64,000 nt of DNA from Saccostrea echinata (lineage: Eukaryota): assembly GCF_033153115.1 (NCBI RefSeq), contig NW_026889803.1:11780001-11844000 (forward strand), written 5' to 3'. Below the pieces are notes generated by a model, which saw only the letters and a list, made by a program, of their open reading frames with translations, did no database searches and was not told where the DNA came from. The translations under genes were made by a program, and so were the position numbers. The first letter of the stretch is position 1; the number at the start of each line of letters is the position of its first letter. This document shows positions 6,801 through 62,905 of the stretch, one piece after another.

Positions 6801-7753
6801 ATTTTACAAAAATTTAGCAAGCGATATCAACCCCTTGCAACAAGGTTGCCTGTGGATGTCGTTATTGTGGACAGTAAAAAAGTACTATTTAGTACTTTCA
6901 ATCTCCATTACGCCACAGAGATTGAAGATGCCTTGAAGAAAGCCTTTTGAATTAGGGATCAAGGTCAAGGTTAAGGTCAAGTTCAAAACAGTGAGATTTT
7001 GACAATTTTGGAGAAAAAGGTTTTAGAGTCCGACACCTACTTGTGAGACATTTAAACAACATGCACAGAGGAAGATGGATATTGAATACCTTAAATTGCA
7101 CAAAAGCGCAAAAGGAATATTGGACACGGTCAGTCGTTATTAAGGAGATGTAGAGTTCCATTTGACCTTTTAGACTGACATTCTCTTAAGGACAAATATT
7201 ATAGATTTCATAAACATGGAGAAATCAAAACGTTAAAAAATGTTTATAATGTTTTAAAATAATGCATGTTTGCTTTGTCATTCTTCACATAGAGAATAAC
7301 AGGAAGATAATTTTGTTCAAGTAATAGATATAGCAATATTATACGAATCTTGTGTTATTTCCAATAAAACTTGTGATGTAGCTGAAAACTCTTGTGACTG
7401 ATATTCAAAAACTTTAATTTATATTAAGTTTTGAATAATCACAAGATTTTGCATATAAATCACAAAATCACAAGCTTTGTATGGTATTGCAATGTTTAAC
7501 ACGCCATAGGCGATTGTTCCTTGAATTTAGCGTACACAAAATATGTTCAAACTTTGATTAATAAATATCTTGCATTTCATCAGGTCAGGCTGGCTACATG
7601 ATTCACAAGTCCATTCCTTATGGCACCATTGACGAAGCTCTTCCCTACCTGTCCAGACGAGTCAGTGAAAATAGTTCCATATTTGGTGGAATCAGACGAG
7701 AGCGCAAAATCATCCGCAAAGCCCTTGCTGACCGTTTACGTTTACGTTCGTAA
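3884..7753 (+). CDS. PRODH2: Mitochondrial proline/hydroxyproline dehydrogenase (PRODH2-like), copy 1, ~481 aa
   Basis: Exons 3884-4150, 4537-4727, 4893-5022, 5308-5394, 5585-5665, 5757-5903, 5975-6252, 6691-6785, 7584-7753, all GT-AG and phase-consistent. Motifs YKQFVGG, VDAEYTY, QNYLK, KLVRGAY, ASHN, FGQLYGM, KSIPYG, PYLSRRVSEN. Basic N-terminus resembles a mitochondrial presequence. AATAAA near 7867. Confidence 0.9.
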
Positions 7754-8380: not shown

Positions 8381-9544
8381 AAATCCAAGGAATTTTTAGG
8401 AAATTTGAAACCACAAAATTTCACCAAAATCGAAATCAACAACATCAAAACGACTTTTCAACTTTATACAACCATTCCCCACGATAGATTTAAGTCCAAG
8501 CTTTTTGACATCAATGACAGCTGGTTTTTCAAAAAAAAAAATCAGAACTCGTAAATTTACTTGTCATTGGTCATTTGCAACATTATTTTGTTAAAACAAT
8601 ATTCTGATTGTACACACAAGTACTCTGAAGTTGACATTAAAAAGATGCTTGTGTTTCTGATTGACAATATCTGTGTAGTTTTTGGAGACCAGGTCTTCCA
8701 ACAATCTGTCGGAATTCCCATGGATACCAATTGCAACCCGTTATTAGCAAATCTATTTTTGTATTCATATCGAGCAGAATTTATTCAAAATCCTAAACAT
8801 GAGAAGAAAAAGCAAAAAAAAAAAACACTTGCTGTGGCCTTCAACTCAACATTTAGATATATCGACGACGTATTATTAATCAACAACTGCTACTTCCATT
8901 CATATGTCGACTCGATATATCCCAGTGAGCTTCAAATAAAAGATACCACAAAGTCTGACATATCTGATTCATATCTGGATATTTTACTAGAAAAAGACTT
9001 TAATGGTAACCTTACAACCAAGCTTTATGATAAACGTGATGACTTCAACTTTTGAATCGTCAACTTCCCTTACTTATGTAGCAATATACCCTTATCACCC
9101 GCATATGAGGTTTATGTCTCTCAGTTGATTCGATACACAAGAGCATGCTCTACGTACGAACAATTTCTAAAAACAAGGCAAGCTATTGACAATTAAAGTG
9201 ATAAAACAAGAATATCAACAGTCATCATTTCGCAAGTTCTATGGTCGATACAATGGCCTTGTCAGCAAATTAAATCTATCATTAAGTCAAATGCTGACTG
9301 ATGTTTTTCATACTAATTGTTAAGCCATTTTTTCAACACTGAATTGTCTACGGATTTTTCTGTTTTCCCGATCATGATAAGGAGCACACGGCGGGTGTGA
9401 CCGGTCGGCAAGGGATGCTCACTCCTCCATAGCACCTGATCCAACCTCTGATGTTTTAGAGGTCCGTGTTTGCTCCGCTCCTGATTTGTATTGTTTGAAT
9501 GGACTTTTAAGCTTGAATACTGTTCTTTATCTCCATATTTCATT
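8381..9544 (+). mobile_element. 5'-truncated, decayed Penelope-like retroelement (Naiad-type RT 3' half)
   Basis: RT motifs QQSVGIPMDTNC, FRYIDD, YLDI, LYDKRDDFNF; frameshifts; family 3' tail ending TATCTCCATATTTCATT shared with five other copies in the window. Confidence 0.85.
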
Positions 9545-11270: not shown

Positions 11271-11890
11271 AATGATTTTTCTGCATGTTGAACTTTAAGT
11301 TTAATTGACTATCTATAATATACGATATGAAACTGAGTGATATCACAGCCCCTTGTATCTTTCTCTGTCATTTGATAGCTAAACAGTTTCTATGTCCGTA
11401 TCAATTTTCAACTCTGGAACAAGTGTGAATCAAGTTACATCAGATTCGCTATGTTTTGACGGTGACCAAAATGGAAAGGGGGAGGGGGAGTGTCAATCGC
11501 CCATGTCTTTATTTTTATTTTCGAAAAAATATGTGTACCATATGTGGAAATAATCACCTACCTAACACCTTTCCCCCAAAATGCAGTAAACCAGGCAAAT
11601 TTTATTGAAAAGTTATTGTTATATTTGCTCTGCAGTGTCCTGGGTAAATGGCAGGAATCTATTTATGTAAGCTGGTCTGAAAAAAATATCTACTCCACAG
11701 TTTATTGCTGATACTCGAATTTGTTGGCCATGGATGACATTTGGGTCTATTACGAATTACCCAAGCGTCCCAAACAAAATATTTTTGTAAAGCTCTTTTT
11801 CTGGATATCAGAAACCTGGATATGATCTGCTGTAGACTGACACTAGCATGATAAACATAAAAAGTTTTTACTGAATTTTCAACTTCAGCA

Positions 11891-14800
11891 ATGCTAAGTA
11901 GAATTTCAGTGCTAAAAAATCTCAAAGAAGGGAATCTAAAGTGGTGCTTTCCATTTTATCGTCATCAACACACTATTGCGGATCCTAATAAGGACCATGT
12001 ACGTGTTCCAGAAAATACTGCGCAACTTCTGGAGTTTGAAGATGCTGTCAAAGCTTGCCAATCGCAGACAAGCTTGGAACTTTTGAGAGCTCTTCTTATT
12101 TTCAACGTTTGTTCGGTTGAGAAATTTGTTAAAAACAATTACAAGGTAAGACGTTAAATGTTTCAATAGTAAGTGTAAAGTATACTATAGGTAGAATTGG
12201 TAATTTTTCCAATAATGTTCTTTGGATAATTTTGAAATGATATCACATAAGATTTCAGTGTTTTCAAGTATCATTTCACATACAAAAAAAGTTTCCGATA
12301 GAATTACTTTAGAACTGGTTAACTTTCATCGTACATTTACCACCCCTTTTAAAGTATCATGTACGACCGAACTAGGACTTGCAAATTCGCTTTCTCTTTT
12401 TGTGAAATCTTGACTAAGTAGTCTAACAAACAACCAAAATTTTAAAAACCAATAGAATAAAAAAATATTTTTGGACCTAGAGCGATGATTTTGAAAAAGA
12501 ATGGCGACTTTTTATAGCTAAAAAATACCGATAAATATTTTTGAGATAAACTAATGGATAATTACAAATCGAACGCTCTCATAACGACAAAAATAGTTTA
12601 TATCATAGTAAGTGAATAAAATAGATATGCTACACATGAAACATGTGCCATTCTGCAATACACAATAAAAGGAATTCTTGAATTATGAAAATGGTAATAA
12701 TAAAAACAGATTTTCGTTTCCAAAGCAACGACACATGTCATTCTCAAATCCAATTTTAATAATTTTATATTTGATTCAATTAAGATTCTCTCATGGAGTC
12801 GTCGACTAATGGGCAGACCATTATTCAATATGATTATGCGTCCTACCTTCTACAGACAATTTGTGGGAGGTCATGATCTTACATCCCTTCAAACGACGGT
12901 GGATCGTCTGCAAGCTGCAGGAATTGGACCATTCGTCATGGTGGCACTGGAGGAAGACGTTAAAGATGACGGACCGTAAGAGAAAGATTTTTTTTCTTTC
13001 TTTTACAAATATTGTTTTATTGCTGAAGCTTAATAATGGCTGTACATTTGCAGATCATTAATAAATTCTACAGAAAATTAATTTTATAATATTTTTTAAA
13101 TTTTATTTAAGAGATGATTTTATCTAATCAAAACAAGAATTTTTTTTACATATTATAAAGGAGCGTATTTTACAGAGATGCTGATCAGATATTTGAAAAA
13201 AATCTTAAGATAATGCTGGACTGTGTGGAAATGACGTCAAAACTGGGGAGCCAGAATCCAATGATCCACATCAAAACGTCTGGATTGTTCCCTCTTGATT
13301 TTTGTGTTTGTATTGAAAATTTACGTTTCAACCATTCTCATCATGTTTATTAGATTTTATCCTTGATAAAAATACATAATGCAATGTAAAACTGGCATAC
13401 TTATGTAACTTATATATGTTGCCATCGCTCTAAAATTCACACGGATGGAATAATATATAGTAAAGACGTAATCAAGGTGTTTTTATTTAATAATGGAATA
13501 AATTGAAGCTTTCTTTGCAATTTTTATTTCTTTCTCTCTAAATTGTATTTGTTTAATTTTTTTTGTTTTTTAAAATCAAAACGACAACATAGAAAGCGAT
13601 TTCAGTGGAAATTCCACGTCCAAATGCCCAACAAAATGTAGTGGAGAAAATTGCGAACTCCATGAACACCTCCAATGAGGTAGGAAATATATGCTCATAC
13701 AATCTTATTCCAGCAGTTAATTCCAAAGAAATCATTTATGTTTTGAAAACTTTCACACGGAAAGAAAATACATTTAAATTCATGAGATTATTTGAAAACA
13801 AATGTATTTCTCTGGCAGATAACAGAGCTGGGAAACCTGTCATCTGTAAAACTCGAACAGTTGAACAAAGCGTTATACAGAATGAAACAGATTTGTGAGG
13901 TAACGTCTTAAAAAGTGAAGAGTATTTAAAGAAAGTGTTTTATACATAAAATCATTTTTTTTAAATTAAAGGTTGCTAAGGGGAAAAACGTAATAGTTAT
14001 GGTGGATGCAGAGTACACTTACCTGAACCCGTGTCTAAATTTAATGACGCTGGCCATGATGCTGAACAGTAACGGTTCCGCTCCACTTGTATTTTATACC
14101 TACCAAAATTACCTCAAGGTCAGTTGTCTTCGATTTCTTTAGATCATACAATAAGCTTCATTTTAGAAAACTTGTCTCAATTTTATTCTTGACAGGAAAC
14201 TCCAAATATTCTTGCAAAGGACATCGCATTAGTCCAAGCACATGGCGTATCCTTTGGTGCTAAACTTGTGCGTGGTGCTTATTTGCATAAAGAAAGGTCG
14301 CTGGCAAAGGAGAAAGGTTATCCTGATCCCGTTTGCGAAACATTCGACAAAACGTCCGAGAATTACAATCGTTCCATGGACATTATGTTGGATAACATCG
14401 CAGAGTATCCTGGGAAATTCAGCACGATAATTGCTTCGCACAACGAAGCCACTCTTAAGAGAGCAATATATAGGTAAGCGTGCAAACTATTCAAAGAACG
14501 AATACAGTGTAGATGTGACCCATGATGACTACATATTTATTACAAAATGACGTAATTTAAGATGTGCACTTGTCGGTGACAGCTTTAAGTTCTCGATGTT
14601 ATATTTCATCTACAAAGAGCCTTGGAAAGAAGGGATGTGAATAAACTTTGAGTGTAACACTAACAAGAAAATATATGTGTATGAAAAAATCGATTCTGGG
14701 GCAAATATAATAGGCGTTCATTTCTCGATTTACATATCATCGTCTCCAAAACAGAAAATTGAAAAAAAAATTGTTTAAAAAAAAAAACAAAAACAAAAGC

Positions 14801-15565
14801 CAAAAATAAAACAGTTAGATGATGGCGTGACATTGATCTGAAAAGTTGGCAATGTTTTGCTGAATGCCAAATCCTTTGTCCGAACTGATGTAAAACATGT
14901 ATCTATATAAGAAAAGGTTTTACTTTGTTGTATGGATACTAGCTGTAAAGCTCATTGATACCTAACTATCTTCAGCTAAATTCCGATCTAAATTTTCGAT
15001 ACAAACTGTATTCGGAAATTTTCCAAAAATTACTTTTCCTATGTGGCGGTACTGAAATGATTTCCACATTGCTCATATTAAGACTCAATATTAAATAATC
15101 AAAATGTGTAATGTTTGAAATCGTGTTTCAGAATGACAGACTTGGGAATACCACGAAGAAGTACGGAACAGAAAGTTTTCTTTGGTCAGACTTATGGAAT
15201 GTCCGACTTCGTATCCCTGTCTTTGGGTAAAGTATTCATAACAGACAAAAGAATTTACACATACAATATTCACTGTATGTTTGATTAAAAAAGCATAGAT
15301 TGCATTAAATATGAAACTATCCTTAATTTCAAGTCATAGTCCCAAAGGCTATGTATTAAATTTAGATACGAAATTTGCTTTTCTTTTCCTATCAGGTCAG
15401 ACTGGCTATATGATCCACAAATCAATACCTTATGGCACTGTTGATGAAGTTCTTCCCTATCTGTCCCGAAGGGTTAATGAAAATAGTTCCATTTTCGGTG
15501 GAATGAGACGAGAACGCAGTATCATCCGAAGAGCCCTTGCAGATCGTGTTCTGTCAAAAACGTGA
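11891..15565 (+). CDS. PRODH2: Mitochondrial proline/hydroxyproline dehydrogenase (PRODH2-like), copy 2, ~477 aa
   Basis: Exons 11891-12145, 12785-12975, 13176-13305, 13593-13679, 13819-13899, 13972-14118, 14196-14473, 15132-15226, 15396-15565. Exons 2-9 have exactly the same lengths as in copy 1 and the same catalytic motifs (GQTYGM instead of GQLYGM; RRVNEN). Confidence 0.9.
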
Positions 15566-17449: not shown

Positions 17450-20400
17450 TCATTCTGGTTCAATATTTTCACAAAATGTAATGCTAAAACCTTCTCGACT
17501 TAATATGTCAATGACAGGTTTTAGATCCTCACAAACGATTAATTTTGATTTATCGTCTTCCTCTGTTTTGTCACTTTCGTACAGCTTTCTTTGCCCTGGA
17601 GGTGGAATATATTTTCCAAGAAGTACTCCGATGATGTCTATCATGTTTAACTCAGTGTCATACCCATTTCTTATGACATACGCAGCACTATCCCCACATT
17701 CTGAAAAGTCACCATCCATTCCTTCAATGAAAAAAACTGTATATGTGCAATTATTTGTATGATCATTGCAATGTTCTATACCTTTAATAATGCCGTCCGT
17801 CCAGCGAGTCCTTGCACCCTTTTTATGAACAATTTCATACATCAGTTTATCTGACTCATGTTCATACAGTCTTGCAGACACCTTCTCTTCGCTAGGATTT
17901 CTAAAAACTTGATCAAAATTATCATAGAGCTTGCGATTGGTTAGAACGAGAGAAAGATCTCTTGGATGAAAATTTCTAGTACATACTCCGACTTGTCGCA
18001 CACATTGGTTTTCTTGAAATCTAGCATACATGTATTCCTTTGGCTGGTACACGTGATTGCAGCTAAATACAACAAGATTATCTTTTTCTCCCATTTTCTT
18101 CATCTTAGCAAAACCTCCAACTGTTCCTTGGTGTTCCCTTTGCATGACTGTACCACTTGTATCGTTTTCCTGACGACGGAATGATAAACATACATCACCT
18201 TGCTTAACAAATGAATGTGGCTTTACATCCCATTCTCCGGGCGTGGAGATCAATTCGGTCTTCCAGGTAAATTCGCCGCTATTTCGAACTATTTGCAACT
18301 CCTGCCAAATATTGTCTATCACCTTTTCGCAAGTTTTTTCATGTACATGTATCTGAAACTTGTCCATATAAAAGCCGTAACTAACTATGGATTGTTTGTG
18401 CCTGAAATAAACATGCAAAATGAGAGTTTAATAAACTGAATCGCTCAATTTCTCATATCATCAGATGTGTAATTCATTTCGAAAAGTGACAATTCATTCT
18501 TCTGACATAAAAAGTAAAACGTACTTACTGATCCAGGACCATCTTCATCATTTTAGGGATGACTCGACTCGGTTTTATTTCGGATTTCCTTTTTCCAGAC
18601 GTGTACTTACGTCGATTTAGTCTCTTACAGATTGCATTCTTTTGAATCAATAGCGATCTGTTTATGGATAAGTTTTTCCGAGTTTTTGCTATCTTTTCAA
18701 TAAAGCTCAGCAATTTTTCTTCCAGGAGTGACGTAACAGCCTCACGCACATCCTCTTTTTTATTTGACACTTGTACTAATTGTACATTTTTAACAGATAT
18801 TTCTTCACTTAATATCTTACATCTAGGATCAGTCACCAGTAAGACCACCTGCGAAATACCATCACGATGTTTCGCTAAAACAGGCAAAGTTCTTCGCAGC
18901 TAGAAAAAGAAACGTAAAATTCAGAATCATTGTAAATAATCAGCTTTTATTTGCGGAAGAAAGTTTGTATATATTTCATTTACTTTTTCGACATTTTCAG
19001 ATGATGTGGAGCCTTCTTCTGAAGTCATAAAACAAACGATGCATATCGGAAAATGGTCCTCAAGACTTTTTTCAAATGTTGATTCTTCGATGGCTGTTAA
19101 TAATACGAAATGTTTACTTTAATAAATACACCGTTAATCTTTAAACATCACTGTAACGATTTTAAAATAATTGTCTTTAAGAAATATGCTAGTTACCTTC
19201 CTCACTGTAAAAACGTTTATGTGAGAGCAAGTCGATATTGTTTTTAGAAATTATTCCGCGTGTCATAATTAGTGGGAATGACCAATACGTGTCGTCACTG
19301 GTATCAATGTCCCCTTGTTTTGAAGATTTATCTATATCTGCCACCCTTTCGAGTAGTTTTCGTATCAAAGACACATGGTAATCATAACGTGGGAAGTCTT
19401 GTGAATCATAGCAGAGGAAGACTGAAAAGAAAAAAAAATTAACATTGAATATTTTATGGACAAATATGCATATTTTATCACCCTGGAGCTACTTTTAAGT
19501 AGAAAATCAATTGCAGTGCTTACTTGCATCAGTGAAATCCCAGTTTTCAACGGCAAACAATTCTGCTTCAATATTTGACCAATCTGCATATTCTTTAAGT
19601 CGAAATGAGAATGTTTTAGGAAATTCTTCACTTATATTCCTATCAAGATAGAACCGCAGAGCTGATTTTAATTCCAACATTTCTTTCTTGTTTTTCCACG
19701 TGAGAAAACTTTTGAAAAACCCTTTAAAATCATCCAATTTTGAAAGAAAATAAAATGCCATAGATTCCCTCTCAAATTTTTCAGCGGATTTTTCACATGG
19801 ATAAATTGAAGAAGATAATATGTATAGCTGCATAAAAAGCTTTGACAGAAATTCAGAATCTTTCATTAAAGGGGACTTTTCAAGTATATCTTTATCAATT
19901 CCACATAACCCACAGGCTATCCTCTGTATGATCGCAAGGTGATATTGTTCATCTATTACTAGTTGTCTTTCTGCTTTACTGCCTTGTCCAAGTTCTGCAA
20001 ATGTCACTAAGGCCGACACACTGATATTGTCCAAGAGCAAGCCAGGGTCATGAGAAAGGAGCCATTTCAGAGCTGGTAACCGCAGATGGTTTTCCAAAGA
20101 CAATGACATCCATTTCAAATGCTTCATAATGTCTTCCTCTGATTGAAAAAATGAATCGCTACATGAAGAATGTTTCGGAATTTTTCGCATATTTCTCAAA
20201 CAAAGGATATTATTCATTGCGCGTTTTTTATCTTGACTTTCCAAACCAAGAGTATCACATTCCCCTACAACCATAGCAACACTGCATATCCTACAGAATA
20301 CTTCAAAATCAGTTTCCACTATCTTTTTGAGCACTTCATCAAAGTAATAATCTGGGGTTTGAAACTCCTTCGTGTACCCTACATTCCATCTCTGAAGCAT

Positions 20401-21665
20401 TGAGCAAAACAAAGGGAATCCCATACTTACATCATATGGATTTTGGGTAATTCCGTATCGCGTCCTCAATTTCACTTGGTCCATTGAATTCCACTGTATT
20501 TTGTAGTAGAACATGTCTAAATTTTTTATCGGATGACTTGACGTAGAGTTCAGAGTAACTATAACAAATCTTTTCTTTTGTTGTTCATCGCATGCATCCT
20601 GTATAACTTTGATCCAGTTTGGATCAGAGAGATCAACATTATCAAGGATTATGTAAGTTTTGTCATGGTTCTTTTCCCATTGTGAAGGATGGGTAATGAA
20701 AGCTATATTTTCTGCATTTGCACAGTTATGCATGACAATAACTGCACAATGCGTCTTTCCACTGCCTCGACACCCTTGTATGGACATACATCTATGTTGG
20801 TACAATATACTTCTAATATCTTCAAAAAGAGAAATTTCTACGTGATGAGAATAAAAGTGCTGAACTATGGATGTCCAAGGTATCTGAAATATGTATTTAA
20901 AATACTGAGAAAGTAGCAAGAAATGCATTTATATACTCCTATTTATTACAATATTTTAGGCTGTAATTTTTCTTCATTTTCACAAACTTATGAACCCATT
21001 TATATATGATTATTAATAAATGGGAAAACTTGAAAGATAAAATATCTATCTGTTTGTATTAAAACCGAAAGAGAAAAGAAAAGGAAAAATTCTGTAGGTT
21101 TCAAGATTATACAGGTCATCTGCGAGAACACCTCCGGACACTTTTTATCTGTTTACATGTCAACGGTGGCCATTTTGAAAATTTAAATTGTTGACTGCAC
21201 AACTAGGGTTGCTGAGCATCATTTAAGTTTCATTAAGATTGTCCAAGTCATATCCGAGAAAATGCTCGGACAAAATTATAGGTCTAGCAATAACAATACA
21301 TGTCGTCCCGACTACGTTCGGGATGACATAAATATATAAACGATTACATACAACCTTCTAGTAAAATATCATATTGAAAAAAATCAAACTAATGTTGCAT
21401 ATGTACAAAGAAAATCCATTACACCGAAAAAGATTATGAATCTGAATGCAAATTTTTAAAGAGGATAAAATGGCGGCCTTGTAATCTTCGTCCGGGTTGG
21501 CGATAAAGTACACGTTATATACGAATATAGTCAGATTAAGACAAAAAAAATAAATACTTTTCTTAATCCAAAGATAGAATATTCATTCTTAAGTATTATA
21601 AATATAATCTAAAATCACAGGAAAGATGATAAAACCTTGATTACCTGTTCATTTGATTCTTCCAT
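17450..21665 (-). CDS. STAND (nSTAND3-like) P-loop NTPase fused to a C-terminal trypsin-like serine protease, ~1012 aa
   Basis: Exons (minus) 21665-21645 (MEESNEQ, tentative), 20883-19524, 19421-19197, 19093-18984, 18899-18529, 18401-17450; 3039 nt in one open frame. Walker A GCRGSGKT, Walker B YIILDN, sensor strand FVIVT, STAND GxP motif GFPLFC. Protease motifs GTVGGF, SCNHV, RDLSLV, KKGARTRWTDG, GDSAA, IIGVLLG. Confidence 0.8.
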
Positions 21666-23326: not shown

Positions 23327-24952
23327 ATGCATGTCGTTGGTATATTCGCCTTTCTTTGTTTTGCTGGGGCAAATGGCCTAGTGATACGTAAGTCTTAAGT
23401 CAGATAACACTTAAATATACAAGTAAGTTATTTCCAAATTGTATTTGAAAGATATTTATTTGAAAACTGATTTGAAAAGCAGCATTTTTGAAAACTGTGA
23501 TTACTGAACAATTCTTATTGATAACTGTAACATAAAAATAGAAACAGTTTTGAGAAAGAAATTTTCTCATAGGTCTCCTTAATACCTTTTGTTAAAAAGC
23601 TAGAGCATTTAAGCAAACCCAGGTTATTAAATATATCGTTTAGTGAGATTCTTATGAATTACTAAGTATTGATAGACTATATTTATTGTGTTTGATACGA
23701 AAAAGGAATTGAAAGAAAAGACATTAAGAAACATGAACATATATAAATATTTACAATTTCTTTTATTATTCTTCAACTAAATTAACATATAAATTTCTAA
23801 GATCCAAATGGCCAAGGAACCCCCACAACTGTCGTTAAGTCCCTGAATGGGGAAACAGTTATGCAATCCGGACCTCCAATCACCCATCCAGAGCAATCCA
23901 GACAAAATGAGAACCAATTCGTCAGAGACCCAACCATATTTAATCCTAAGAGATCCAGACTTAATTCAATTCAAACTGATCCAACGAATGCAATGATGAA
24001 CAACATGGTTCGAATGATGAACCCAATGGCACCTGAGACTATTCGACAGGAACAAAAGCCTTCCATGTCTGACAGGTCAAAGATGATGATGAATATGATA
24101 AAAAATATGCCTAACATGGCAAGTGTGATGGGAGATAGAACAGCAATGGCCGATCTTATGAATGCGATGTCATCAGCATCTGAGATAATGGCCAAAATGC
24201 AGAACAATATGAAAATGAATCAAGCCAGAAAATCTAATGTGCAGTCTCCGTATGAAACAGACTACTATATGCCCATCATGACGAATAAGATGACAAATAT
24301 GCCCACAATGGTTTCTAATGACATGATGAAAAATGCACCCTTCATGCCTCCTGCTTCTGAAATGATGGGAAATATGCCCTCCATGCCCCCTGCTGCTGAA
24401 ATGATGACAAATGTTCCCTCCATGCCCTCTGCTGCTGAAATGATGACAAATGTGCCCTCCATGCCCTCTGCTGCTGAAAAGATGACAATTATATCCTCTA
24501 TGCCCCCTGCTGCTGAAATGATGACGAATATGCCTTCCATGCCCAATATGCCTCCTGCTGCTGAAATGATAATGCAAAAGGGCCAAATGTCTGATATTAT
24601 GTCTAAAGTATCCCAAGTACCTTTCGGTATTAAAATGATGGGATTCAGTCCACAACAACGCAGTAAGTACAACTACTTCTGTTTGTGATAATTCTTGTAT
24701 ATATTTTTTTCTAATTTGATTGTTGTAGATCAAATAATATCGGCATAATATTCAATATAATTTACACAAATTGAACACTAGTATATAATTATAGCCTTGT
24801 GACAAACAATTCTTACAAATCATTATCGAAAGCTTAAAGACAATGATTCCGTCATCTGAGCGTTAAGATAGTAGGGAAATCACACAGATAATCTTCATTT
24901 TTATATTAATGTTGTTTACATCTTAGTTTTTTCCTCTATTTCAGGATATTAA
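23327..24952 (+). CDS. Secreted Met/Pro-rich repeat protein, ~309 aa
   Basis: Exons 23327-23387 (signal peptide MHVVGIFAFLCFAGANG), 23802-24662, 24945-24952 (ends QQRRY*). About six 13-aa repeats MP(P/S)AAEMMTN(V/M)PS at ~24343-24570. Confidence 0.8.
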
Positions 24953-42632: not shown

Positions 42633-45450
42633 ATGTTAAGGTGTGCCTTTACACGACCCACGCTATGCATCAAAACATTTTTTTGGTCCTAAAAATAAAA
42701 TGTGGAAGTCAAAACATACATTATATCATGTTTGACATCTAATACATTGACCATAATAATCATCTGACAATTTAATACCGCAGGAAAAAGAAATCAATCA
42801 AAGAAATCCTTGCAGTACATCTTCTTTCATTTATTCGGATTTATTGGTTCTTTAACAGTTCATTTCTCTTGTTTAGGGTGCGTGGAATTTCCGTTATATT
42901 CATGATATTCATTCAGATGGCTATTTTTCATGGAAATCTAAGTACATGCAGGAAACAAAAATTAAATATGCATCCAACATAAGTAAAAGTTTGTTTAGTT
43001 TATCAAAACTGTATTACAATTTTATACAGATATGAGGGTGAAACGTCCTACACTCTCTTCTGAGATTTGCAATAACCCTACCCACTCTACGCACCCCTTG
43101 TTGTTCCTTGGTGAAAGAATCTGATACTAATATATATTCTAGTGTAAGTTCACACAAGCATGACAGAAGAAATGATAAACAAGCATAAATACACAGACTT
43201 ACCAGTGTTCATTGTTTCTATAGTCTGTGAATCCCCTGTAGAAAGGAACATCATTTTCAAGCATGTTTTCTTGATACAATTCTTAATCTATTCCAATAAT
43301 ATTTCTTTCATGTAATAATACATCCAAGAAATTTGTTTGAACTTACCCTATTTTTTATCACAGTAGGGCCAATAAAATATAAATACTCTTTTTTCATTTA
43401 CAAACAAGCCTTTGTATCTTTGTTCCACCTACTGACAAAGAAATATTAATTCGACAATATATAATTCTTTTAATTCAATTCTAAAATTCATTAATTTTAT
43501 ACACTCAATGCAATTTTACGATGATTTTAATACATATGCCTGAATTTGCGCAAAGCAAAGAGAAAACTTTTGAAACAATTTACAGATATTATAAAAACTA
43601 TGCAAATTCATCGTTCAAATTTCCAAATTTTTTTTTGCTCAAGTTGTTTGTTTCTAATTCTTTTTTGTTATGTTTTATTTTTTTGAATTAGCGACAAATT
43701 TTTGCCACTGCTGCACTCTGCTCTGTCTGTCTGGTATCATAGGGAAAAAAAAATCATATATTGTAATGACAGTATTTTAACAACATAAAAACTTATGACT
43801 TTTCAACTTTATATACAACTATTCCCCACGATAAATTAAAGTCCAGACTTTCCGACATCGTTGACAGCTGCTTTTTCAATAAGAATGGAACTCGTAAATT
43901 TACTTACCTTGTCATTAGTCATTTGCAAAATTACTTTGTTAAAAAGCAATCTGTTTGTACACACAAGTACTCTGAAGTTGACATTAAAAAGATGCTCGAG
44001 TCTCTGATTGACAATATCTATGTGGTTTTTTGGAGACCAGGTCTTCCAACAATCTATTGGAATTCCCATGGGTACCAATTGCTCCCCGTTATTAGCAGAC
44101 TTATTTTTTGTATTCATATGAAGCAGAATTTGTTAAAATATCTTTTACGTGAAAAGAAGAAAACACTTGCTGTGGCCTTCAACTCGGCATTTAGATATAT
44201 CGACGACGTATTGTCAATTAACAATGGTTATTTCCATTCTTATGTCGACACGATATATCCCGGTGAGCTTGAGATAAAAGATACTACAGAGTCTGACACA
44301 TCTGTTTCATATTTGGATATTTTATTAGAAATAGACGTTAAAGGTAATCTAACAACAAAGCTTTATGATAAACGTGATGACTTTAACTTTTCAATAGTCA
44401 ACTTCCCTTACCTATGCAGCAATATACCCTTATCACCTGTATACGGGGTTTATATCTCTCAGTTGATTCTATACACAAGAGCATGCTCTACGTATGAACA
44501 ATTTCTAAAACGAGATAAATTATTGACAAACAAGTTGATGAAACAAGAATATCAGCAGTCTCGTATAAAGTCATCATTTCGTAAGTTCTATGGTCGATAC
44601 AATGACCTTGTCAGCAAATACAATCTATCATTAAGTCAAATGCTGACTGACTTTTTTCATACTAATTGTTAGGCCATTTTTTACACACTAAATTGTCGAC
44701 GGATTTCCCCATTATTTCCCGATCATGACAAAGAGCATACCGTGGGAGTGACCGGTCGGCAGGGGATGCTCACTCCTCCATGGCACATGATCCCATGATG
44801 TCTTAGAGGTCCGAGTTTGCTCTGCTCCTATTTTGTAATGTTTGATGGACTTTTGAGCTCGAATACTGTTCGTTATCTCCACATGTTTCATTACCATTTT
44901 AAAAGTTATTTTTATTCGAGTGTTAACAATCTTCCTATTTTTCCAAAGAATGCTTTTATATAAGTTCTTGTAATGCATCTAACTCTCTCAGGAGGTATAA
45001 AAGAAATGAAAAGTATTATTGCATGAGAAAAAAGGGTGGAACATTGATAGAAAAATGGGTAAATGGATAAAACAGGTAATAACTGATAAAGTCAGCAGAC
45101 ATAGACTAGAAAGGAACAAAGTCAGAATATATGGTTCTATGAGGATGTCATCTTTTGGTGACATTATAAACGAAGGGATGGAAGGCAATATGGGCAAGGA
45201 AATGTGATGATGCCCATGGAAATGTTAAGTTTGATATAAGGTAAAAACATGAGGAAAATGAATGATCTTCATAAAGTGATATGATGGCGTTAGATTTACA
45301 TGTATAAGAGATATGGGAAGCATAAAATATAAGCACTTACTTTTGTGGAGAATTTTTTTTACATATGTAATTCCTTCTGGCTTCTGTCTATTCTTCAGTC
45401 TTAGCCGCATTTGTTTAATACAAAACTCACTGCGCTGACCCAATTCATTA
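42633..45450 (+). pseudogene. Pseudogene B of the abductin-like family
   Basis: Promoter homolog at 42633-42790 with no TATTTAAA; exon 1 to 42877; decayed repeat exon 44992-45328 aligning to genes A/C, with stops, frameshifts and donor GT changed to AT; last-exon remnant 45405-45418. Signal exon not found. Interrupted by a PLE. Confidence 0.7.
43778..44892 (+). mobile_element. 5'-truncated Penelope-like (Naiad-type) retroelement
   Basis: ORF 43923-44672 with FRYIDD and LYDKRDDFNFSIVNFP..SNIP..YGVYISQL, stopping after the thumb; frameshifts; family 3' tail. Confidence 0.85.
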
Positions 45451-45755
45451 TATACAACATAAAATGAAAATTCAAATATGACAAAATATATTAATGCACA
45501 TCTTAAGACAAAGAGCAGAATGATTTGCTACTTCTTTGTCAGGTTTTTTTTCATGTTTTTCTTTCTTTATTCTTTTCCTTTGTGCAGAAATTTTAAATCG
45601 TATACTGAAACAGTTTAAGCAATTTGCAATTGCACTGAAATTCAGAAAGGTGATCAACCGAAAAATCATGAAGAACTATAAAATTATGTCAAGGTGTGCC
45701 AGACACGATTAATACAGTGCATCAAAACAATGAACTGTCCTAAAAATAAAACATC

Positions 45756-45946
45756 TAAGTCAAAACATACATTTTGTCAGGTTTGACTTGTTATACAACA
45801 AACATAATGATCACCCGACTAATTGGCCACCGGAAAAGGGATAAACCCTCTGCCTATTTAAACCGTTCTCGGTTCGAAATCTATGCAGTGCTTGGTCTCT
45901 CATTTCTCCGGGTTTTTTGTCCGACACTTCATTACCTTTGCTCAGG
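45756..45946 (+). promoter_or_regulatory. Conserved promoter block and non-coding exon 1, gene C
   Basis: Same block as gene A; CCGGAAA 45830, TATTTAAA 45855-45862, donor GTGAGT at 45947. Confidence 0.75.
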
Positions 45947-46392: not shown

Positions 46393-47229
46393 ATGGTTTT
46401 CTCTCTCGTTGCCGTTTCTTGCCTTATTGCTGTGGCCAGCGCAGCAGGCTACGGGCCAGGTAATGAAATTTCACTTTGTTATACTTTCTTTGCATATTAA
46501 TTTGGTTTTTTTTTTTCTTTCTTTTTTTTTAAAGACTTAAAGCAGCAACAAAAAATTATAATAAATAAATAAATAAATAAATCTTGCCACCACAACATAG
46601 CTAAACCCTTCTTTTCAGATGTTAAATATAGACACCAATTCATCTAAATAAAATATATTTTTTTATTAGGAGGAGGTATGGGAATGATGAATGGCGGTAT
46701 GGGAGGAGGCATGATGAACGGCGGCATGGGTGGAGGAATGATGAACGGCGGCATGGGAGGAGGAATGATGAACGGCGGCATTGGAGGAGGAATGGGCAAA
46801 ATGATGATGATGATGCCAGCAAATATGGGCATGGGAGGAGGCATGGGCTCCATGATGATGCCATCTTTGGGCGGCATGATGAATGGAGGAATGGGAGGCA
46901 GCATGGGCAAAGGTAGTATGATGATGATGCCAATGGGAATGATGAATATGATGAAAGGTGGAATGGGCGGAAATATGGGTGGAATGAACAGTATGATGAT
47001 GCCAGCCAGCATGGGCGGTATGATGGGCTCTGGAGGTATGGGTGGCATGGGAAGCATGAAATGTAAGTCTTTTGTTTTTATTACCAACTTCAAGATTCAT
47101 TTCTTATTTATCAAATGTCTATCACACTTTTATCCTTGAATGCATTAAAAAAAAATAATAGTTTTGAATGTTTCAGTAATCATATAATCTAATTTATTTT
47201 TTTTCCCTTCTATTACAGCCGCTTATTAG
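46393..47229 (+). CDS. Abductin-like secreted Gly/Met-rich protein C, ~156 aa
   Basis: Exons 46393-46459 (MVFSLVAVSCLIAVASAAGYGP), 46670-47062, 47219-47229 (ends MKSAY*); AATAAA at 47320. Confidence 0.85.
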
Positions 47230-47419
47230 AAAAGAGATTCACTGCATTCATAATTCATCGTAAACAAAAGACCCCGAGGAGTTTTGCCTTTTTCTATGTT
47301 TTAATTAGTGAAAACTAGAAATAAATTAGTGACGCAATCAGTATATTGTTTTATTTGATTGAAGAAGACCAGTGGTTTGGAAAATATAACTTCTTTCAAT
47401 TTCTTTGTATTATAATGTA

Positions 47420-47758
47420 CTGGTCGAGGTAGCCTAGTGGTAGGGCGTCGCTTCGTGATCGGGAGGTACTGAGTTCGATTCTCATTACCAGCGCCGCGTC
47501 GAACCTAAGACGTTAACATTGGTAGTGAGACTGTCCCTTCACCAAGCACCGGCATTAGAAGTCACTGGTCTTTCAGATGAGACCTTAAAAACCGAGGTCA
47601 TGGTAGACGTTGGCACTATAAGGAACCACTGCTCGATGACCCTGAGTGTTGAATAATGTCTAACTGAAGCCCTTCACCGGTATATGGTGACGTCTTTATA
47701 TGAGTAAAAAATTCTTGCAAGGGATGTAAAAACATAGTTACATGTATAATTAATCATC
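47420..47758 (+). mobile_element. tRNA-derived SINE (Meta + Deu/Nin-like domains, BivaMD-like)
   Basis: A box TAGCCTAGTGG, B box GTTCGATTC, GATGAGACCTTAAAAACCGAGG core, 12-bp TSD TATTATAATGTA. Domain names are from recall. Confidence 0.75.
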
Positions 47759-50014: not shown

Positions 50015-51127
50015 AGAGAATTCTTAGTAAATCTGAAATCACAAAATTTTAACGTTCGACTTTTCATCACTTAATTCAACCATTCCCCACGATTAATTAA
50101 AGTCCAGGCTTTTTGACATCATAGACAGCTGCTTTATCAATAAAAATGGAACTCGTACATGTACTTTCCTTGTCAATGGTCATTTGCAAAAATATTTTGT
50201 TAAAAAGCATTCTCACTGTACACACAGGTACTCTGAAGTTAATTTTATAAAGATGCTTGAGTTTCTGATTGACAATATCTATGTAATTTTTGGAGAGCAG
50301 GTCTTTCAACAATCTGTTGGAATTCCCATGGGTACCAATTGCGCCCTCTTGTTAGCAGACCTATTTTTGTAGTTATATGAAGCAAAATTTATTCAAAAAC
50401 CTTAACATGAGAAGAAGAAAACACTTACTGTGGCCTCTCGAAATTTACATATATCGTCGACGTATTATCCATTCATACGTCGACTCGATATATCCCAGTG
50501 AGCTTAAAATAAAAGATACCACAGAGTCTGACACATCTGTTTCATATTTGGATATTATACAAGAAAAAGACCTTAATGGTAACCTAACAACAAAGCTTTA
50601 TGATAAATGTGATGACTTTAACTTTTCAATTGTCAACTTCCCTTACTTATGCAGCAATATACCCTTATCACCTGCATATGGGGTTTTCTCTCCCAGTTGA
50701 TTCGATACGCAAGAGCATGCTTTACGTATGAACAATTTCTAAAAGAGGCAAGCTATTGACAAACAAGTTGATGAAACAACAATATCAACAGTCTCGTTTG
50801 AAGTCATCATTTTGCAAGTTTTATGGTCTATACAATGACTTTGTCAGCAAATACAATCTATCATTAAGTCAAATGTTGAATGGCGTTTTTTATACTAATT
50901 TTTAGGCCATTATTTACACACTACAGTGTCTACGGATTTTTCCTTTTCCCTCGATCATGACAAGGAGCACACAGCGGGTGTGACCGGTCGACAAAGCATG
51001 CTCACTCCTCCATGGCACCTGATCCCACCTCTGATGTTTTTAGAGGTCCGTTTTTGCTCTGCTCCCGCTTTGTATTGTCTAAATGAACTTTAAGCTTGAA
51101 TACTGTTCGTTATCTCTATTTTTCATT
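50015..51127 (+). mobile_element. 5'-truncated, decayed Penelope-like (Naiad-type) retroelement
   Basis: GIPMGTNCALLLADLFL, LYDKCDDFNFSIVNFP, family 3' tail. Confidence 0.85.
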
Positions 51128-52984: not shown

Positions 52985-53768
52985 ATGTCTTTCTCTTTTG
53001 TAACCGTTCTTTCTCTAATCGTTGTGGCTAATGCAGCATACTACGGACCAGGTAATTAACAAATGAAAATTAAAGATAAAATTTAACTTTCATTTTCTCA
53101 ACTACTTTTGTTTACTTTTCAAAACCTATTAATGAAAATGTTTAAACAAGGTAAGAAAAATAAATTTCAAATTTAATCCAAATAATTCGTTCATTTTTTC
53201 CATTCTTACAACATTTACATTAACAATATGAAATATGTGAAACAAATTATTTATTTGTAAACTTTTTTTGCTAACAAATACTTACTTTTAAAGGAGGAAT
53301 GAGTAAAATGGGCGGTGGCATGGGCGGAGGTATGATGTCCAGTGGCATGGGCGGCGGCATGGGCAGAATGATGATGGGAATGGGCGGAGGAGGTATGGGC
53401 GGCATGGGAGGAATGAAGGGTATGATGATGCCCGGTAACATGGGCGGTATGATGGGCGGCGGAGGAATGGGCGGCATGGGAGGAATGGGCGGCATGGGAG
53501 GAATGGGCGGTATGAAATGTAAGTTCATTTGATTCACTACCACAACGATTTCACCACATTTCATTTAAATTTTTCCTTGTTCATGAAATATTTGCAATAA
53601 GCAAGATGTTTACTTTGATTTCATTTTCCCCCTTTTAATGTAAAATGTCTTAATCTCTGTATTCATAAAGCAAGTATGTCTAATACTAGTATTGATATAT
53701 TTTTATTTTAAAGAATTTTAAAATATCATTTTACTTTTTATTTCCTTACAGCTGCCTATTATGGATAA
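52985..53768 (+). CDS. Abductin-like secreted Gly/Met-rich protein D, ~102 aa
   Basis: Exons 52985-53051 (MSFSFVTVLSLIVVANAAYYGP), 53294-53518 ((GGM)n), 53752-53768 (ends MKSAYYG*); AATAAA at 53848. Confidence 0.85.
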
Positions 53769-59239: not shown

Positions 59240-60573
59240 CGAATATTTTTAATATTCCCAACAACCAACATGAATTTGAATTACCATATCTATATTGGAT
59301 TCCAAAACTTCATAAAAATCCTTACAAATAAAGATACATAGCGGGCTCCAATAAATGTTCTACCAAGCCTCTTTCTTTACTCCTCACTAAAATATTAACA
59401 ATAGTGAATTGGTGTAAATCAGATATGGATACTTAAAAATTCCAAGGAACTTTTGGACCAAAATCAACAACATGAAAATTTACGACTTTTCAACTTTATA
59501 TACAACCATTCCCCACGATAAATTAAAGTCCAGGCTTTTTGATATCACTGACAGCTGCTTTTTCAATAGAAACGGAACTCGAAAATTTACTTACCTTGTC
59601 ATTGGTCATTTGCAAAATTATTTTGCAAAATTCTGATTGTACACACAAGTACTCTGAAGTTGATGTTAAAAAGATGCTTGAGTTTCTGATTGACAATATC
59701 TATATGATTTTTGAAGACCAGGTCTTCCAACAATCTGTTGGAATTCCCATGGATACCAACTGCGCCTCGTTATTAGCAGACCTAATTTTTGTATTCATAT
59801 GAAGCAGAATTTGTTTAAAATCTTATACGTGAAAAGAAGAAAACACTTGCTGTGGCCTTCAACTCGACATTTAGATATATCGACCACGTATTGTCAATTA
59901 ACAATGGTTATTTAAATTCTTCTGTCGATAATACATATCCCAATGAGCCTGAAATAAAAGATCCCACAGAGTCTGATACATCTGTTCTATATTTCAATAT
60001 TTTACTAGAAAAAAAACGTTAATGGTAATCTAACAACCAAGCTTTATGATAAACTTGATGAGTTTAACTTTAATCGTCAACTTCCCTTACTTATGCAGCA
60101 ATATACCTTCATCACCTGCATACGGGGTTTATATCTCTCAGCTGATTCGATACGAAGAGCATCTCTACGTATGAACAATTTCTAAAGTGAGGTATGTTAT
60201 TGACAAACAAGTTGATAAAACAAGAATATCAGCAGTCTCGTTTAAAGTCGTCATTTCGTAAGTTCTATGGTAGATAAAATGACCTTGTCAGCAAATACAA
60301 TTTATCATGAAGTCAAATGTTGACTGACGTTTTTCATACTTATTGTAAGACCATTATGTACACACCGAATTGGCAACGGATATTTCCGTTATTTCCCGAT
60401 CATGACAAAGAACACACGGCGGGTGTGACCGGTCGGCAGGGGATGCTCACTCCTCCATGGCACCTGATCCCACCGCTGATGTTTCAAAGGTCCGTGTTTG
60501 CACTGCTCCAAAATTTGTATTGTTTAAAGGACTTTTGAGCTTGAATACTGTTCGTTATCTCCATACATTTCAT
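59240..60573 (+). mobile_element. Penelope-like (Naiad-type) copy, head-to-head with the previous one
   Basis: LPYLYWIPKLHKNP, GIPMDTNC, FRYIDH, family 3' tail. Confidence 0.85.
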
Positions 60574-61771: not shown

Positions 61772-62905
61772 ATGGCATCTCTCCTGTGCGCTCTTTCTGC
61801 TGTGTTGGCCGTATCTATGGTCAGTGCAAGAGGTTATGGTCCAGGTTGGTTTCTTTCGATGAACATTTCAATAAAATTAAGTGTCTTCTACGAAATAATA
61901 CTTTACAGCATTGAATGGAGATAAGAGACTTTTTTTCTACTTTTCATCATTGTTTGAATTGTCCATTTTTCTCTATCTAACTGGAACATTTGCTTATTTA
62001 TAGGTGGAATGGGCGGAATGATGTCGGGTGGAATAGGCGGTGGAATGATGTCAATGGGAGGCATAGGATCCATGGGCGGTAGTATGGGAGGCATTGGATC
62101 CATGATGCCAATTAGTAAAATGATGGGAAGCATGGGCGGTATTGGATCTATGGGAAGCATGGGTGGAATTGGATCTATGGGCGGAATTGGATCTATGGGT
62201 GGCATGGGTGGAATTGGATCAATGGGCAGCATGGGTGGAATCGGATCAATGGGAAGCATGGGTGGAATCGGATCTATGGGCGGAATAAGATACATGAAAT
62301 CTATGGGCGGCATTGGATCCATGGGCGGTATTGGATCTATGGGTGGCATGGGATCCATGGGCGGTATTGGATTTATGGGCGGCATGGGATCAATGGGCGG
62401 CATGGGATCAATGGGCGGCATCGGATCCATGGGTGGCATCGGTTCCATGGGCGGTATCGGATCCATGGGTGGCATGGGAGGTAAGTTATCAGGATAAATA
62501 GTATTTGGTATTACTTTCATTCTCATATTCATAATTTGAATTTGTTTACAAGTTGATTTTCTTTAAAGATAAGGAAATCTCAATTAAATAGAAAACAAAA
62601 TTATTTAAATTTGATTTGATAGTTTTGAAATAAATATGATTATTAATATTCTGTAAAAATTTTCATTACAGGCATGGGAATGAAATGTAAGTGTCATTGT
62701 TAATATATCTTTATGCATAATAATTATNNNNNNNNNNNNNNNNNNNNNNNNNNNNNNNNNNNNNNNNNNNNNNNNNNNNNNNNNNNNNNNNNNNNNNNNN
62801 NNNNNNNNNNNNNNNNNNNNNNNNNNNNNNNNNNNNNNNNNNNNNNNNNNNNNNNNNNNNNNNNNNNNNNNNNNNNNNNNNNNNNNNNNNTTAGCTGGAT
62901 ATTAA
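61772..62905 (+). CDS. Abductin-like secreted Gly/Met/Ser-rich protein E, ~191 aa
   Basis: Exons 61772-61844 (MASLLCALSAVLAVSMVSARGYGP), 62004-62480 (GG(I/M)GSM repeats), 62672-62686 (15-nt microexon GMGMK), 62895-62905 (SGY*, just after the gap); AATAAA at 62964. An extra exon inside the gap cannot be excluded. Confidence 0.8.
62728..62890. other. Assembly gap in the last intron of gene E
   Basis: Run of N. Confidence 1.

What the first reader, a model, noticed from the sequence alone, without database searches (positions are those of the whole stretch)
46393..47229. Signal-peptide and tail match to scallop abductin outside the low-complexity region
Seen: gene C begins MVFSLVAVSCLIAVASAAGYGPGG and ends GSMKSAY; gene E ends GMKSGY. 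Recalled from memory and to be verified: Argopecten abductin begins MNAYICLAACLIAAVSAAGYGGG and ends GGKGY. The CLIAxxSAAGYG match suggests homology rather than compositional convergence. These proteins lack abductin's FGGMG phenylalanines. Inference: abductin-family elastomers are not limited to swimming scallops, and the Phe-free variants may have different resilience.
Basis: partly seen in the sequence, partly recalled or inferred. Interest (0 to 1): 0.7.

Follow-up and report, generated by a model that had tools for sequence, protein, structure and literature searches.

The report
Oyster abductin-like hinge protein gene cluster
A rock oyster carries a cluster of spliced genes for glycine/methionine-rich proteins with tyrosines at both ends; these are likely secreted parts of the rubbery shell hinge and probably distant relatives of scallop abductin and pearl-oyster LMP, though neither the kinship nor the hinge location has been shown.

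Summary
The gene is real and spliced (3 of 3 introns bridged) and encodes 156 residues. After the leader it is 39% Gly, 36% Met, Phe-free, with Tyr only at residue 20 and the end. Four neighbours share the layout; a flanking gene points to Saccostrea.

The abductin link is only partly verified, because abductin's sequence could not be fetched. Of four published marker residues the gene has Cys10 and Tyr20 but not Tyr4 or Cys6. All four occur across the paralogues (shuffle P 0.0002-0.05). Abductin's Phe repeat is absent. The tail match is little more than a terminal Tyr, and the SAAGY motif is not fixed (Arg variant).

Best reading: hinge-ligament matrix proteins, likely cross-linked through end tyrosines, probably one family with abductin and LMP (about 0.55). 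They are not abductin by its defining repeat. Reviews already place abductin in non-swimming bivalves. The scan had not noted this on other DNA.

The parts
45740..45862 (+). Upstream block conserved among the tandem paralogues, with a CCGGAAA element (45830-45836) and a TATA-like TATTTAAA (45855-45862); likely the promoter
   Evidence: Alignment of 4 upstream regions, 70% mean column identity; function inferred
45898..45946 (+). Non-coding first exon (5' end as far as the contig reaches)
   Evidence: X1 contig starts at 45898 and skips 446 nt GT..AG to 46393
46393..46459 (+). Leader exon: starts at ATG directly after the acceptor AG; hydrophobic signal-peptide-like stretch with Cys10, then Tyr20-Gly-Pro; phase-1 intron follows
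   Evidence: the signal peptide is judged by eye, no predictor was available
46670..47062 (+). Gly/Met core exon (130 codons): about four 9-residue repeats containing GGMGGG, then Met runs; no Phe, Tyr, Cys, Asp or Glu
47219..47340 (+). Tail exon: three codons ending in the terminal Tyr, stop at 47227-47229, 3' UTR with AATAAA at 47320-47325 and an A-run on a contig after 47340
36869..38067 (+). Closest paralogue, 160 aa, Cys10, Tyr20-Gly-Pro, ends Tyr-Ala-Gly
   Evidence: 3 of 3 introns bridged in X1
52985..53768 (+). Paralogue, 102 aa, 51% Gly, GGM repeats, Tyr at 19, 20, 100, 101, ends Tyr-Tyr-Gly
61772..62905 (+).
   Evidence: last join inferred
29725..33205 (-). Long divergent paralogue, 765 aa, Met/Gly/Pro-rich, Tyr4, Cys7, Tyr22-Gly, Met-Lys then a Tyr-Trp tail exon
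   Evidence: core covered by X1 contigs; last exon inferred from splice signals
23327..24952 (+). Met/Pro-rich secreted-type gene (309 aa) with the same phase-1 terminal-Tyr micro-exon but no Tyr-Gly after the leader; possible sixth, distant member
   Evidence: model inferred

Best explanation
This is one of five clustered, similarly built oyster genes for Gly/Met-rich, tyrosine-capped proteins that are likely secreted into the hinge ligament and are probably descended from the same ancestral gene as scallop abductin and pearl-oyster LMP. Steps of the mechanism: (1) Shown: the gene is spliced from a leader exon, a low-complexity core exon and a tail micro-exon. (2) Inferred: the leader is cleaved after residue 17-19, leaving Tyr20 within the first three residues. 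(3) Inferred from composition: the core is a disordered chain without acidic residues that acts as an entropic spring, with Met runs giving hydrophobic cohesion. (4) Inferred by analogy with what is proposed for abductin: the end tyrosines, perhaps also the four lysines, are oxidatively cross-linked, so that short chains join end to end into a network. (5) Inferred: that network is the organic matrix around the aragonite fibres of the ligament and reopens the valves. Paralogues keep the exon frame and caps but swap the core repeat.
For: Gene structure confirmed by contigs. Same exon frame and phase-1 introns in 5 genes. Tyr confined to the chain ends: P about 0.002 in the focal gene and 4e-5 to 0.034 across the five (the genes are not independent). 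Published abductin markers: the focal gene has 2 of 4 (P 0.009-0.026). All 4 are found in 3 of the 4 paralogue sets tested (P 0.0002-0.012); the fourth set has 3 of 4 (P 0.008-0.048). The second half of the abductin decamer, GGMGGG, occurs 3 times in the focal gene and 5 times in the 36869 paralogue, each time preceded by Asn where abductin has Phe. Size is like abductin: 137 versus 116 mature residues, 4 versus 3 Lys. LMP, the top protein of Pinctada fucata ligament proteomics, has Tyr-Gly-Pro at residues 21-23 and ends Tyr-Gln-Gly, while two paralogues end Tyr-Ala-Gly and Tyr-Tyr-Gly (PMC7591529 Fig. S3; compared by eye). That paper notes that ligament proteins lack the acidic regions of shell-layer proteins, and 4 of 5 genes here have 0-1 Asp+Glu. 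The organism is a bivalve, Saccostrea.
Against: No direct alignment to abductin was obtained. Tyr4, Cys6 and the GGFGGMGGGX repeat are absent from the focal gene. Composition differs: Gly 39% versus 58%, Met 36% versus about 12%. The best-matching motif is in 1 of 5 paralogues and varies within the genus. Signal peptides share composition, so the conservative null for the recalled match is only P about 0.01. Marker positions were scored after the fact. Gly/Met-rich secreted proteins also make up 9% of the shell matrix of the hingeless limpet Lottia (PMC4094399), and most insoluble nacre and prism proteins identified in Pinctada have Met-rich regions. There are no tissue, proteomic, cross-link or mechanical data for these genes. 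Abductin's cross-link chemistry is itself unvalidated.
Confidence: 0.55

Rival explanations
1. They are shell-matrix or periostracum scaffold proteins of the mantle (like Lottia GMP or Pinctada MRNP34/NU-5), and the likeness to abductin comes from shared composition plus signal-peptide bias.
For: Lottia GMP is 20% Gly, 18% Met, extracellular and 9% of shell matrix in an animal without a hinge. Met-rich regions occur in nacre and prism proteins. The region-preserving null for the N-terminal match is only about 0.01.
Against: These proteins lack the acidic blocks of the shell proteins. The Tyr-Gly-Pro start and end-only tyrosines match two ligament proteins, and not the two nacre-protein N-termini seen (tyrosinase, NU-5).
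Confidence: 0.2
2. They are hinge-ligament proteins but arose independently of abductin. Selection for short disordered chains cross-linked at end tyrosines produced the same design, possibly related to LMP only.
For: Telechelic tyrosines are a functional design that could converge. Cores of abductin, LMP and these genes differ strongly. The SAAGY motif is not conserved across paralogues or congeners. Oysters are closer to pearl oysters than to scallops (own knowledge; PRODH identity 57% to scallops).
Against: Function does not require Cys10 and Tyr20 at the same residue numbers, nor Tyr4 and Cys6 in sister paralogues.
Confidence: 0.17
3. They are secreted structural proteins of another tissue, such as larval foot cement or byssus, egg coat or mucus-associated matrix, cross-linked by tyrosine oxidation.
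For: Tyr/DOPA cross-linking is common in bivalve adhesives (own knowledge). The tissue of the runs is not on record.
Against: Only 2-4 Tyr and few Lys per chain is low for an adhesive. Spliced contigs occur in runs of two studies.
Confidence: 0.08

Closest known systems
Abductin of Argopecten irradians (Cao et al. 1997, AAB94680.1; seen only through reviews PMC9999432 and PMC13052691)
   Same: Short bivalve protein with an Ala-rich leader, Cys10 and Tyr20 at the same numbers, terminal Tyr, Gly/Met body, few Lys and the GGMGGG hexamer
   Different: No Phe repeat; no Tyr4 or Cys6 in the focal gene; Met about three times higher, Gly lower, Asn and Met runs present, Pro 3.6% versus 1%; cemented non-swimming oyster; localisation unknown
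LMP, ligament methionine-rich protein of Pinctada fucata (PMC7591529 Fig. S3A)
   Same: Leader followed at once by Tyr-Gly-Pro (residues 21-23 versus 20-22 here), Met-dominated body without internal Tyr, C-terminal Tyr-x-Gly as in the 36869 and 52985 paralogues
   Different: LMP's core is a Met/Lys/Pro/Asp hexapeptide repeat, nearly Gly-free, and about twice as long; the focal gene ends in Tyr without the final Gly
Second P. fucata ligament protein pfu_aug1.0_1662.1_66071.t1 (same figure)
   Same: Met/Gly/Asn-rich C-terminal region, an 8-residue Gly-Lys-Gly-Ser-x-Met-Met-Met stretch matching the focal core at 7 of 8 (by eye, low complexity, untested), terminal Tyr
   Different: About 50 kDa with a long Asn/Gly/Trp repeat; no leader in the published model
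GMP_LOTGI (B3A0R1), glycine- and methionine-rich shell protein of Lottia gigantea (PMC4094399)
   Same: Extracellular, Gly and Met enriched, basic, partly disordered
   Different: Only 20% Gly and 18% Met; shell matrix of a gastropod; sequence not seen here

Membership tests
Abductin | Ala-rich leader of about 19-20 residues | tested here: met
   Hydrophobic leader with 4 Ala among residues 13-18, ending before Tyr20; judged by eye, no signal-peptide predictor available
Abductin | Cys10 | tested here: met
   Focal gene and 36869 paralogue, 2 of 5 genes
Abductin | Tyr20 | tested here: met
   3 of 5 genes at residue 20, the other 2 at residue 22
Abductin | Cys6 | tested here: not met
   Val6 in the focal gene; Cys6 only in the 61772 paralogue, 1 of 5
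Abductin | Tyr4 | tested here: not met
   Ser4 in the focal gene; Tyr4 only in the 33205 paralogue, 1 of 5
Abductin | Tyr at both ends of the mature chain | tested here: met
   Tyr at 20 and 156 only; abductin's two terminal Tyr
Abductin | GGFGGMGGGX decamer repeat | tested here: not met
   0 FGGMG in 5 of 5 genes; 0 GGxGGMGGG in 4 of 4 scored; only the GGMGGG half is present
Abductin | About 58% Gly, 1% Pro, about 12% Met | tested here: not met
   39% Gly, 3.6% Pro, 36% Met; the nearest paralogue has 51% Gly, 31% Met
Abductin | Significant direct alignment to AAB94680.1 | not testable with these tools
   Sequence not retrievable; simulation shows core searches pass 0 of 30 decoys
Abductin | Located in the hinge ligament, rubber-like in compression | not testable with these tools
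   No tissue on record for the runs
LMP (Pinctada) | Tyr-Gly-Pro directly after the leader | tested here: met
   4 of 5 genes (Tyr-Gly-Arg in the fifth) versus LMP residues 21-23 (by eye)
LMP (Pinctada) | Met/Lys/Pro/Asp hexapeptide repeat core | tested here: not met
   Cores are Gly/Met; 0-1 acidic residues in 4 of 5 genes
LMP (Pinctada) | Major insoluble ligament protein by proteomics | not testable with these tools
   Shown for LMP only
Gly/Met-rich shell matrix proteins (GMP_LOTGI type) | Sequence similarity and presence in shell matrix | not tested
   Only the composition line was seen

The most novel reading that the evidence does not exclude
Abductin, LMP and this oyster cluster are one ancient bivalve hinge-protein family. 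It keeps a fixed gene chassis (leader exon ending in Tyr-Gly, core exon, terminal-Tyr micro-exon) while the core repeat is freely rewritten: Gly/Phe/Met in scallops, Met/Lys/Pro/Asp in pearl oysters, Gly/Met/Asn in oysters. Lineage differences in hinge resilience would then be encoded by one swappable exon, and the five oyster paralogues would be a natural library of end-cross-linkable elastomers.
Probability: 0.4. Interest if true: 0.65.

Novelty: new variant of a known kind. Interest (0 to 1): 0.42.

Why it matters
Abductin is described as the only natural elastomer working in compression, its sequence is known essentially from one scallop, and its cross-links are unknown. If these genes are its relatives, the family becomes traceable through its leader exon and intron frame even though ordinary searches cannot see it. 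The conserved end tyrosines become the prime cross-link candidates to test. Phe-free, Met-rich natural variants also allow a direct test of what Phe adds to resilience. The interest is for specialists: Gly/Met-rich ligaments in non-scallop bivalves are long known at the level of amino-acid composition (recalled: Kahler et al. 1976, Kikuchi and Tamiya 1987; not held).

Tried and rejected
Searches for relatives:
- phmmer with the core exon: 0 of 6955 candidates at E<=0.001.
- Leader-exon profile: 0 hits among 1.84 billion representatives and 0 of 1239 candidates at E<=10.
- These blanks say little. Locally, 2 of the 3 other paralogues tested are invisible to the core query. Core queries passed 0 of 30 abductin-like decoys, and leader profiles passed 14 of 30, mostly at 19-29 bits, under the library threshold.
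- Pfam: 0 families for 7 of 7 segments from the cluster.
- ESM Atlas: best score 0.76, a lead at most.
- Metagenome locus search could not run on so short a query.
- No whole genome is held, so synteny and intron comparison with scallops were impossible.

Structure: AlphaFold2 without an alignment gave mean pLDDT 52 and 37. This is uninformative, so no fold search was run.

Expression: no holder on record as RNA was listed. Contig depth was not used to rank expression.

Literature:
- The first search matched 'abducting' and was wasted.
- None of the 29 listed of 31 whole-word 'abductin' papers is by title about oyster homologues (listing only). Motif and topic searches showed none either.
- Cao 1997, Suzuki 2019, Futagawa 2025, Kikuchi and Tamiya 1987 and Kahler 1976 are not held and may already note these links.

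Considered and rejected:
- An upstream ATG near 45883 as the start. It lies before the 5' end of the contig, just after the TATA-like box, and would be out of frame.
- Filing the gene as abductin. The defining repeat was tested and not met.
- Composition alone as evidence of homology.

Full report
Observation. Contigs of public runs confirm it. Run X1 bridges 3 of 3 introns, including a 446-nt intron after a non-coding first exon. The last intron is bridged in 4 of 4 runs laid, one of them with only 21 letters on the short side. The runs are only guessed to be RNA and carry no tissue record, so they show splicing, not where or how much. From Tyr20 onward the chain is 39% Gly, 36% Met, 7% Asn, 7% Ser and 3.6% Pro, with four Lys, no Phe, no acidic residue, and Tyr only at 20 and 156.

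Surroundings. Four more genes share the layout: 36869, 52985 and 61772 on the plus strand and 33205 on the minus strand. Each has an ATG right after a splice acceptor, a leader exon ending at Tyr-Gly(-Pro-Gly) in phase 1, a Gly/Met core, then Met-Lys, a phase-1 intron and a micro-exon with Tyr. The 36869 gene is confirmed at 3 of 3 introns. The others are modelled from splice signals, and the last join of the 61772 gene crosses an N gap. Upstream regions of the four plus-strand genes align at 70% mean column identity, with shared TATA-like and GGAAA elements, which suggests co-regulation (inference). Cores differ: 8-9-residue GGMGGG repeats, GGM repeats and GGIGSM repeats. A sixth Met/Pro-rich gene at 23327 has the same terminal-Tyr micro-exon but no Tyr-Gly start. 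A flanking proline dehydrogenase exon is 99% identical to Saccostrea echinata, 89% to S. cucullata, 81% to Ostrea edulis and 55-57% to scallops. The tandem pair matches the two halves of the S. echinata model. So this is a cemented rock oyster, not a scallop.

Test of the abductin match. I could not obtain abductin's sequence: searches were blank, the primary paper is not held, and only its accession appeared. Local tests show those blanks are expected for such biased sequences. I therefore used published facts. PMC13052691 (section 2.4 read) gives an Ala-rich domain 1-20 with Cys6, Cys10, Tyr4 and Tyr20. PMC9999432 (section 3.2.5 read) gives a 19-residue signal, a 116-residue mature chain, 58% Gly, 14 Met, 3 Lys, the GGFGGMGGGX repeat and two terminal Tyr.

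Result of that test. The focal gene has Cys10 and Tyr20 but not Tyr4 or Cys6 (P for 2 or more of 4: 0.009 whole shuffle, 0.026 region-preserving). Tyr4 is found in the 33205 gene and Cys6 in the 61772 gene. Of four paralogue sets tested, three hold all four markers (P 0.0002-0.012) and one holds three (P 0.008-0.048). This is the pattern expected if paralogues kept different parts of a common ancestor, but it was scored after the fact and the genes are not independent. If the recall is right, 11 of 22 positions after Met1 match without gaps (my count by eye from the finding), with a null of 5e-5 to 0.012. The repeat GGMGGG, the second half of abductin's decamer, occurs 3 times in the focal gene and 5 times in the 36869 gene, always after Asn instead of Phe.

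Against the match. A contig from run X6, labelled as another organism, has Arg before Gly-Tyr-Gly-Pro (loose end, one contig), as does the 61772 gene. The tail agrees only in the terminal Tyr. The Phe repeat and the composition do not match.

A second lead. The supplement of PMC7591529 (Fig. S3 text seen; passages; parts 1 and 3 of 3 of the ligament peptide table) prints LMP, the top-scoring insoluble protein of the Pinctada fucata ligament. It has a leader, then Tyr-Gly-Pro at residues 21-23, a Met-dominated body without Tyr, and ends Tyr-Gln-Gly. Here 4 of 5 genes have Tyr-Gly-Pro at 20-22 or 22-24, and two end Tyr-x-Gly. This is an eye comparison without a computed probability. It holds for 1 of the 2 ligament proteins in that figure; the other has no leader in its model but ends in Tyr. 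PMC13080008 (passages) describes LMP as framework protein secreted from the mantle isthmus around aragonite nanofibres. So the two best-known ligament proteins each resemble this family at the chain ends while differing in the core.

Mechanism. Shown: gene structure, splicing, composition, end-only tyrosines. Inferred: secretion with cleavage after residue 17-19, and a disordered Gly/Met chain acting as an entropic spring. Also inferred: cross-linking through the end Tyr and possibly Lys/Met, as proposed but not validated for abductin, and deposition in the ligament. I put ligament localisation at about 0.7, common ancestry with abductin at about 0.6, and both together at 0.55. The main rival is a shell-matrix role: a Gly/Met-rich protein is 9% of the limpet Lottia's shell matrix (PMC4094399, passages), and Met-rich regions are common in nacre and prism proteins. 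Two earlier scan notes on bacterial Gly/Met-rich proteins (unchecked) are a reminder that this composition recurs without kinship.

Comparison and novelty. It likely works like abductin but is not filed as abductin, because the Phe decamer, Tyr4, Cys6 and the composition were tested and not met. Reviews already speak of abductin in scallops and clams. From my own recall, Gly/Met-rich ligaments in many bivalve families are known from amino-acid analyses. I found no paper in the held library describing oyster abductin-like genes or uniting abductin with LMP (listings only). The key subscription papers and their supplements were not visible and may bear on this. Other papers touched: PMC3291537, PMC12571646, PMC4944945, PMC9508354, PMC12577713, PMC3896809 and PMC10543319 (passages only; supplements of PMC4944945 and PMC12571646 searched by term); none gave the abductin sequence.

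Verdict. A real, well-supported gene family in Saccostrea, and a new variant of the known Gly/Met bivalve ligament proteins. Kinship to abductin is probable but unproven. Interest 0.42. One alignment and one intron comparison would settle most of it.

Noticed in passing
window 3875-7750 and 11861-15565 (+): Two tandem proline/hydroxyproline dehydrogenase genes (Pfam Pro_dh). Public Saccostrea models fuse them into one 819-994 aa protein, probably an annotation artefact.
   Followed up: partly
window 23327-24952 (+): Met/Pro-rich secreted-type gene, 309 aa, with the same terminal-Tyr micro-exon as the cluster but a different start; low-depth contigs cover part of it.
   Followed up: partly
window 17450-18427 and 19507-20928 (-): Long ORFs next to the cluster. 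One has a weak STAND-type NTPase match (nSTAND3, E 5e-6, below the curated cut-off); the other looks by eye like a trypsin-type protease domain. Possibly an innate-immune NTPase gene.
   Followed up: no
window 43770-44672, 8555-9055, 50097-50700, 59527-59802: Several degraded copies of a reverse-transcriptase-like element (YIDD motif seen; no Pfam hit for the longest), interspersed between the paralogues.
   Followed up: no
window 47420-47500: tRNA-like, SINE-type repeat just downstream of the focal gene. Many unrelated contigs map to it; ARAGORN finds no tRNA.
   Followed up: partly
window 29730-30490: High-copy repeat inside the last intron of the 33205 gene, with very high summed contig depth in 4 of 4 runs.
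   Followed up: no
window 62006-62479 (+): The GGIGSM core has Gly at every third position (identity autocorrelation 0.61 at lag 6), a pattern compatible with polyproline-II bundles; single-sequence AlphaFold was uninformative.
   Followed up: partly
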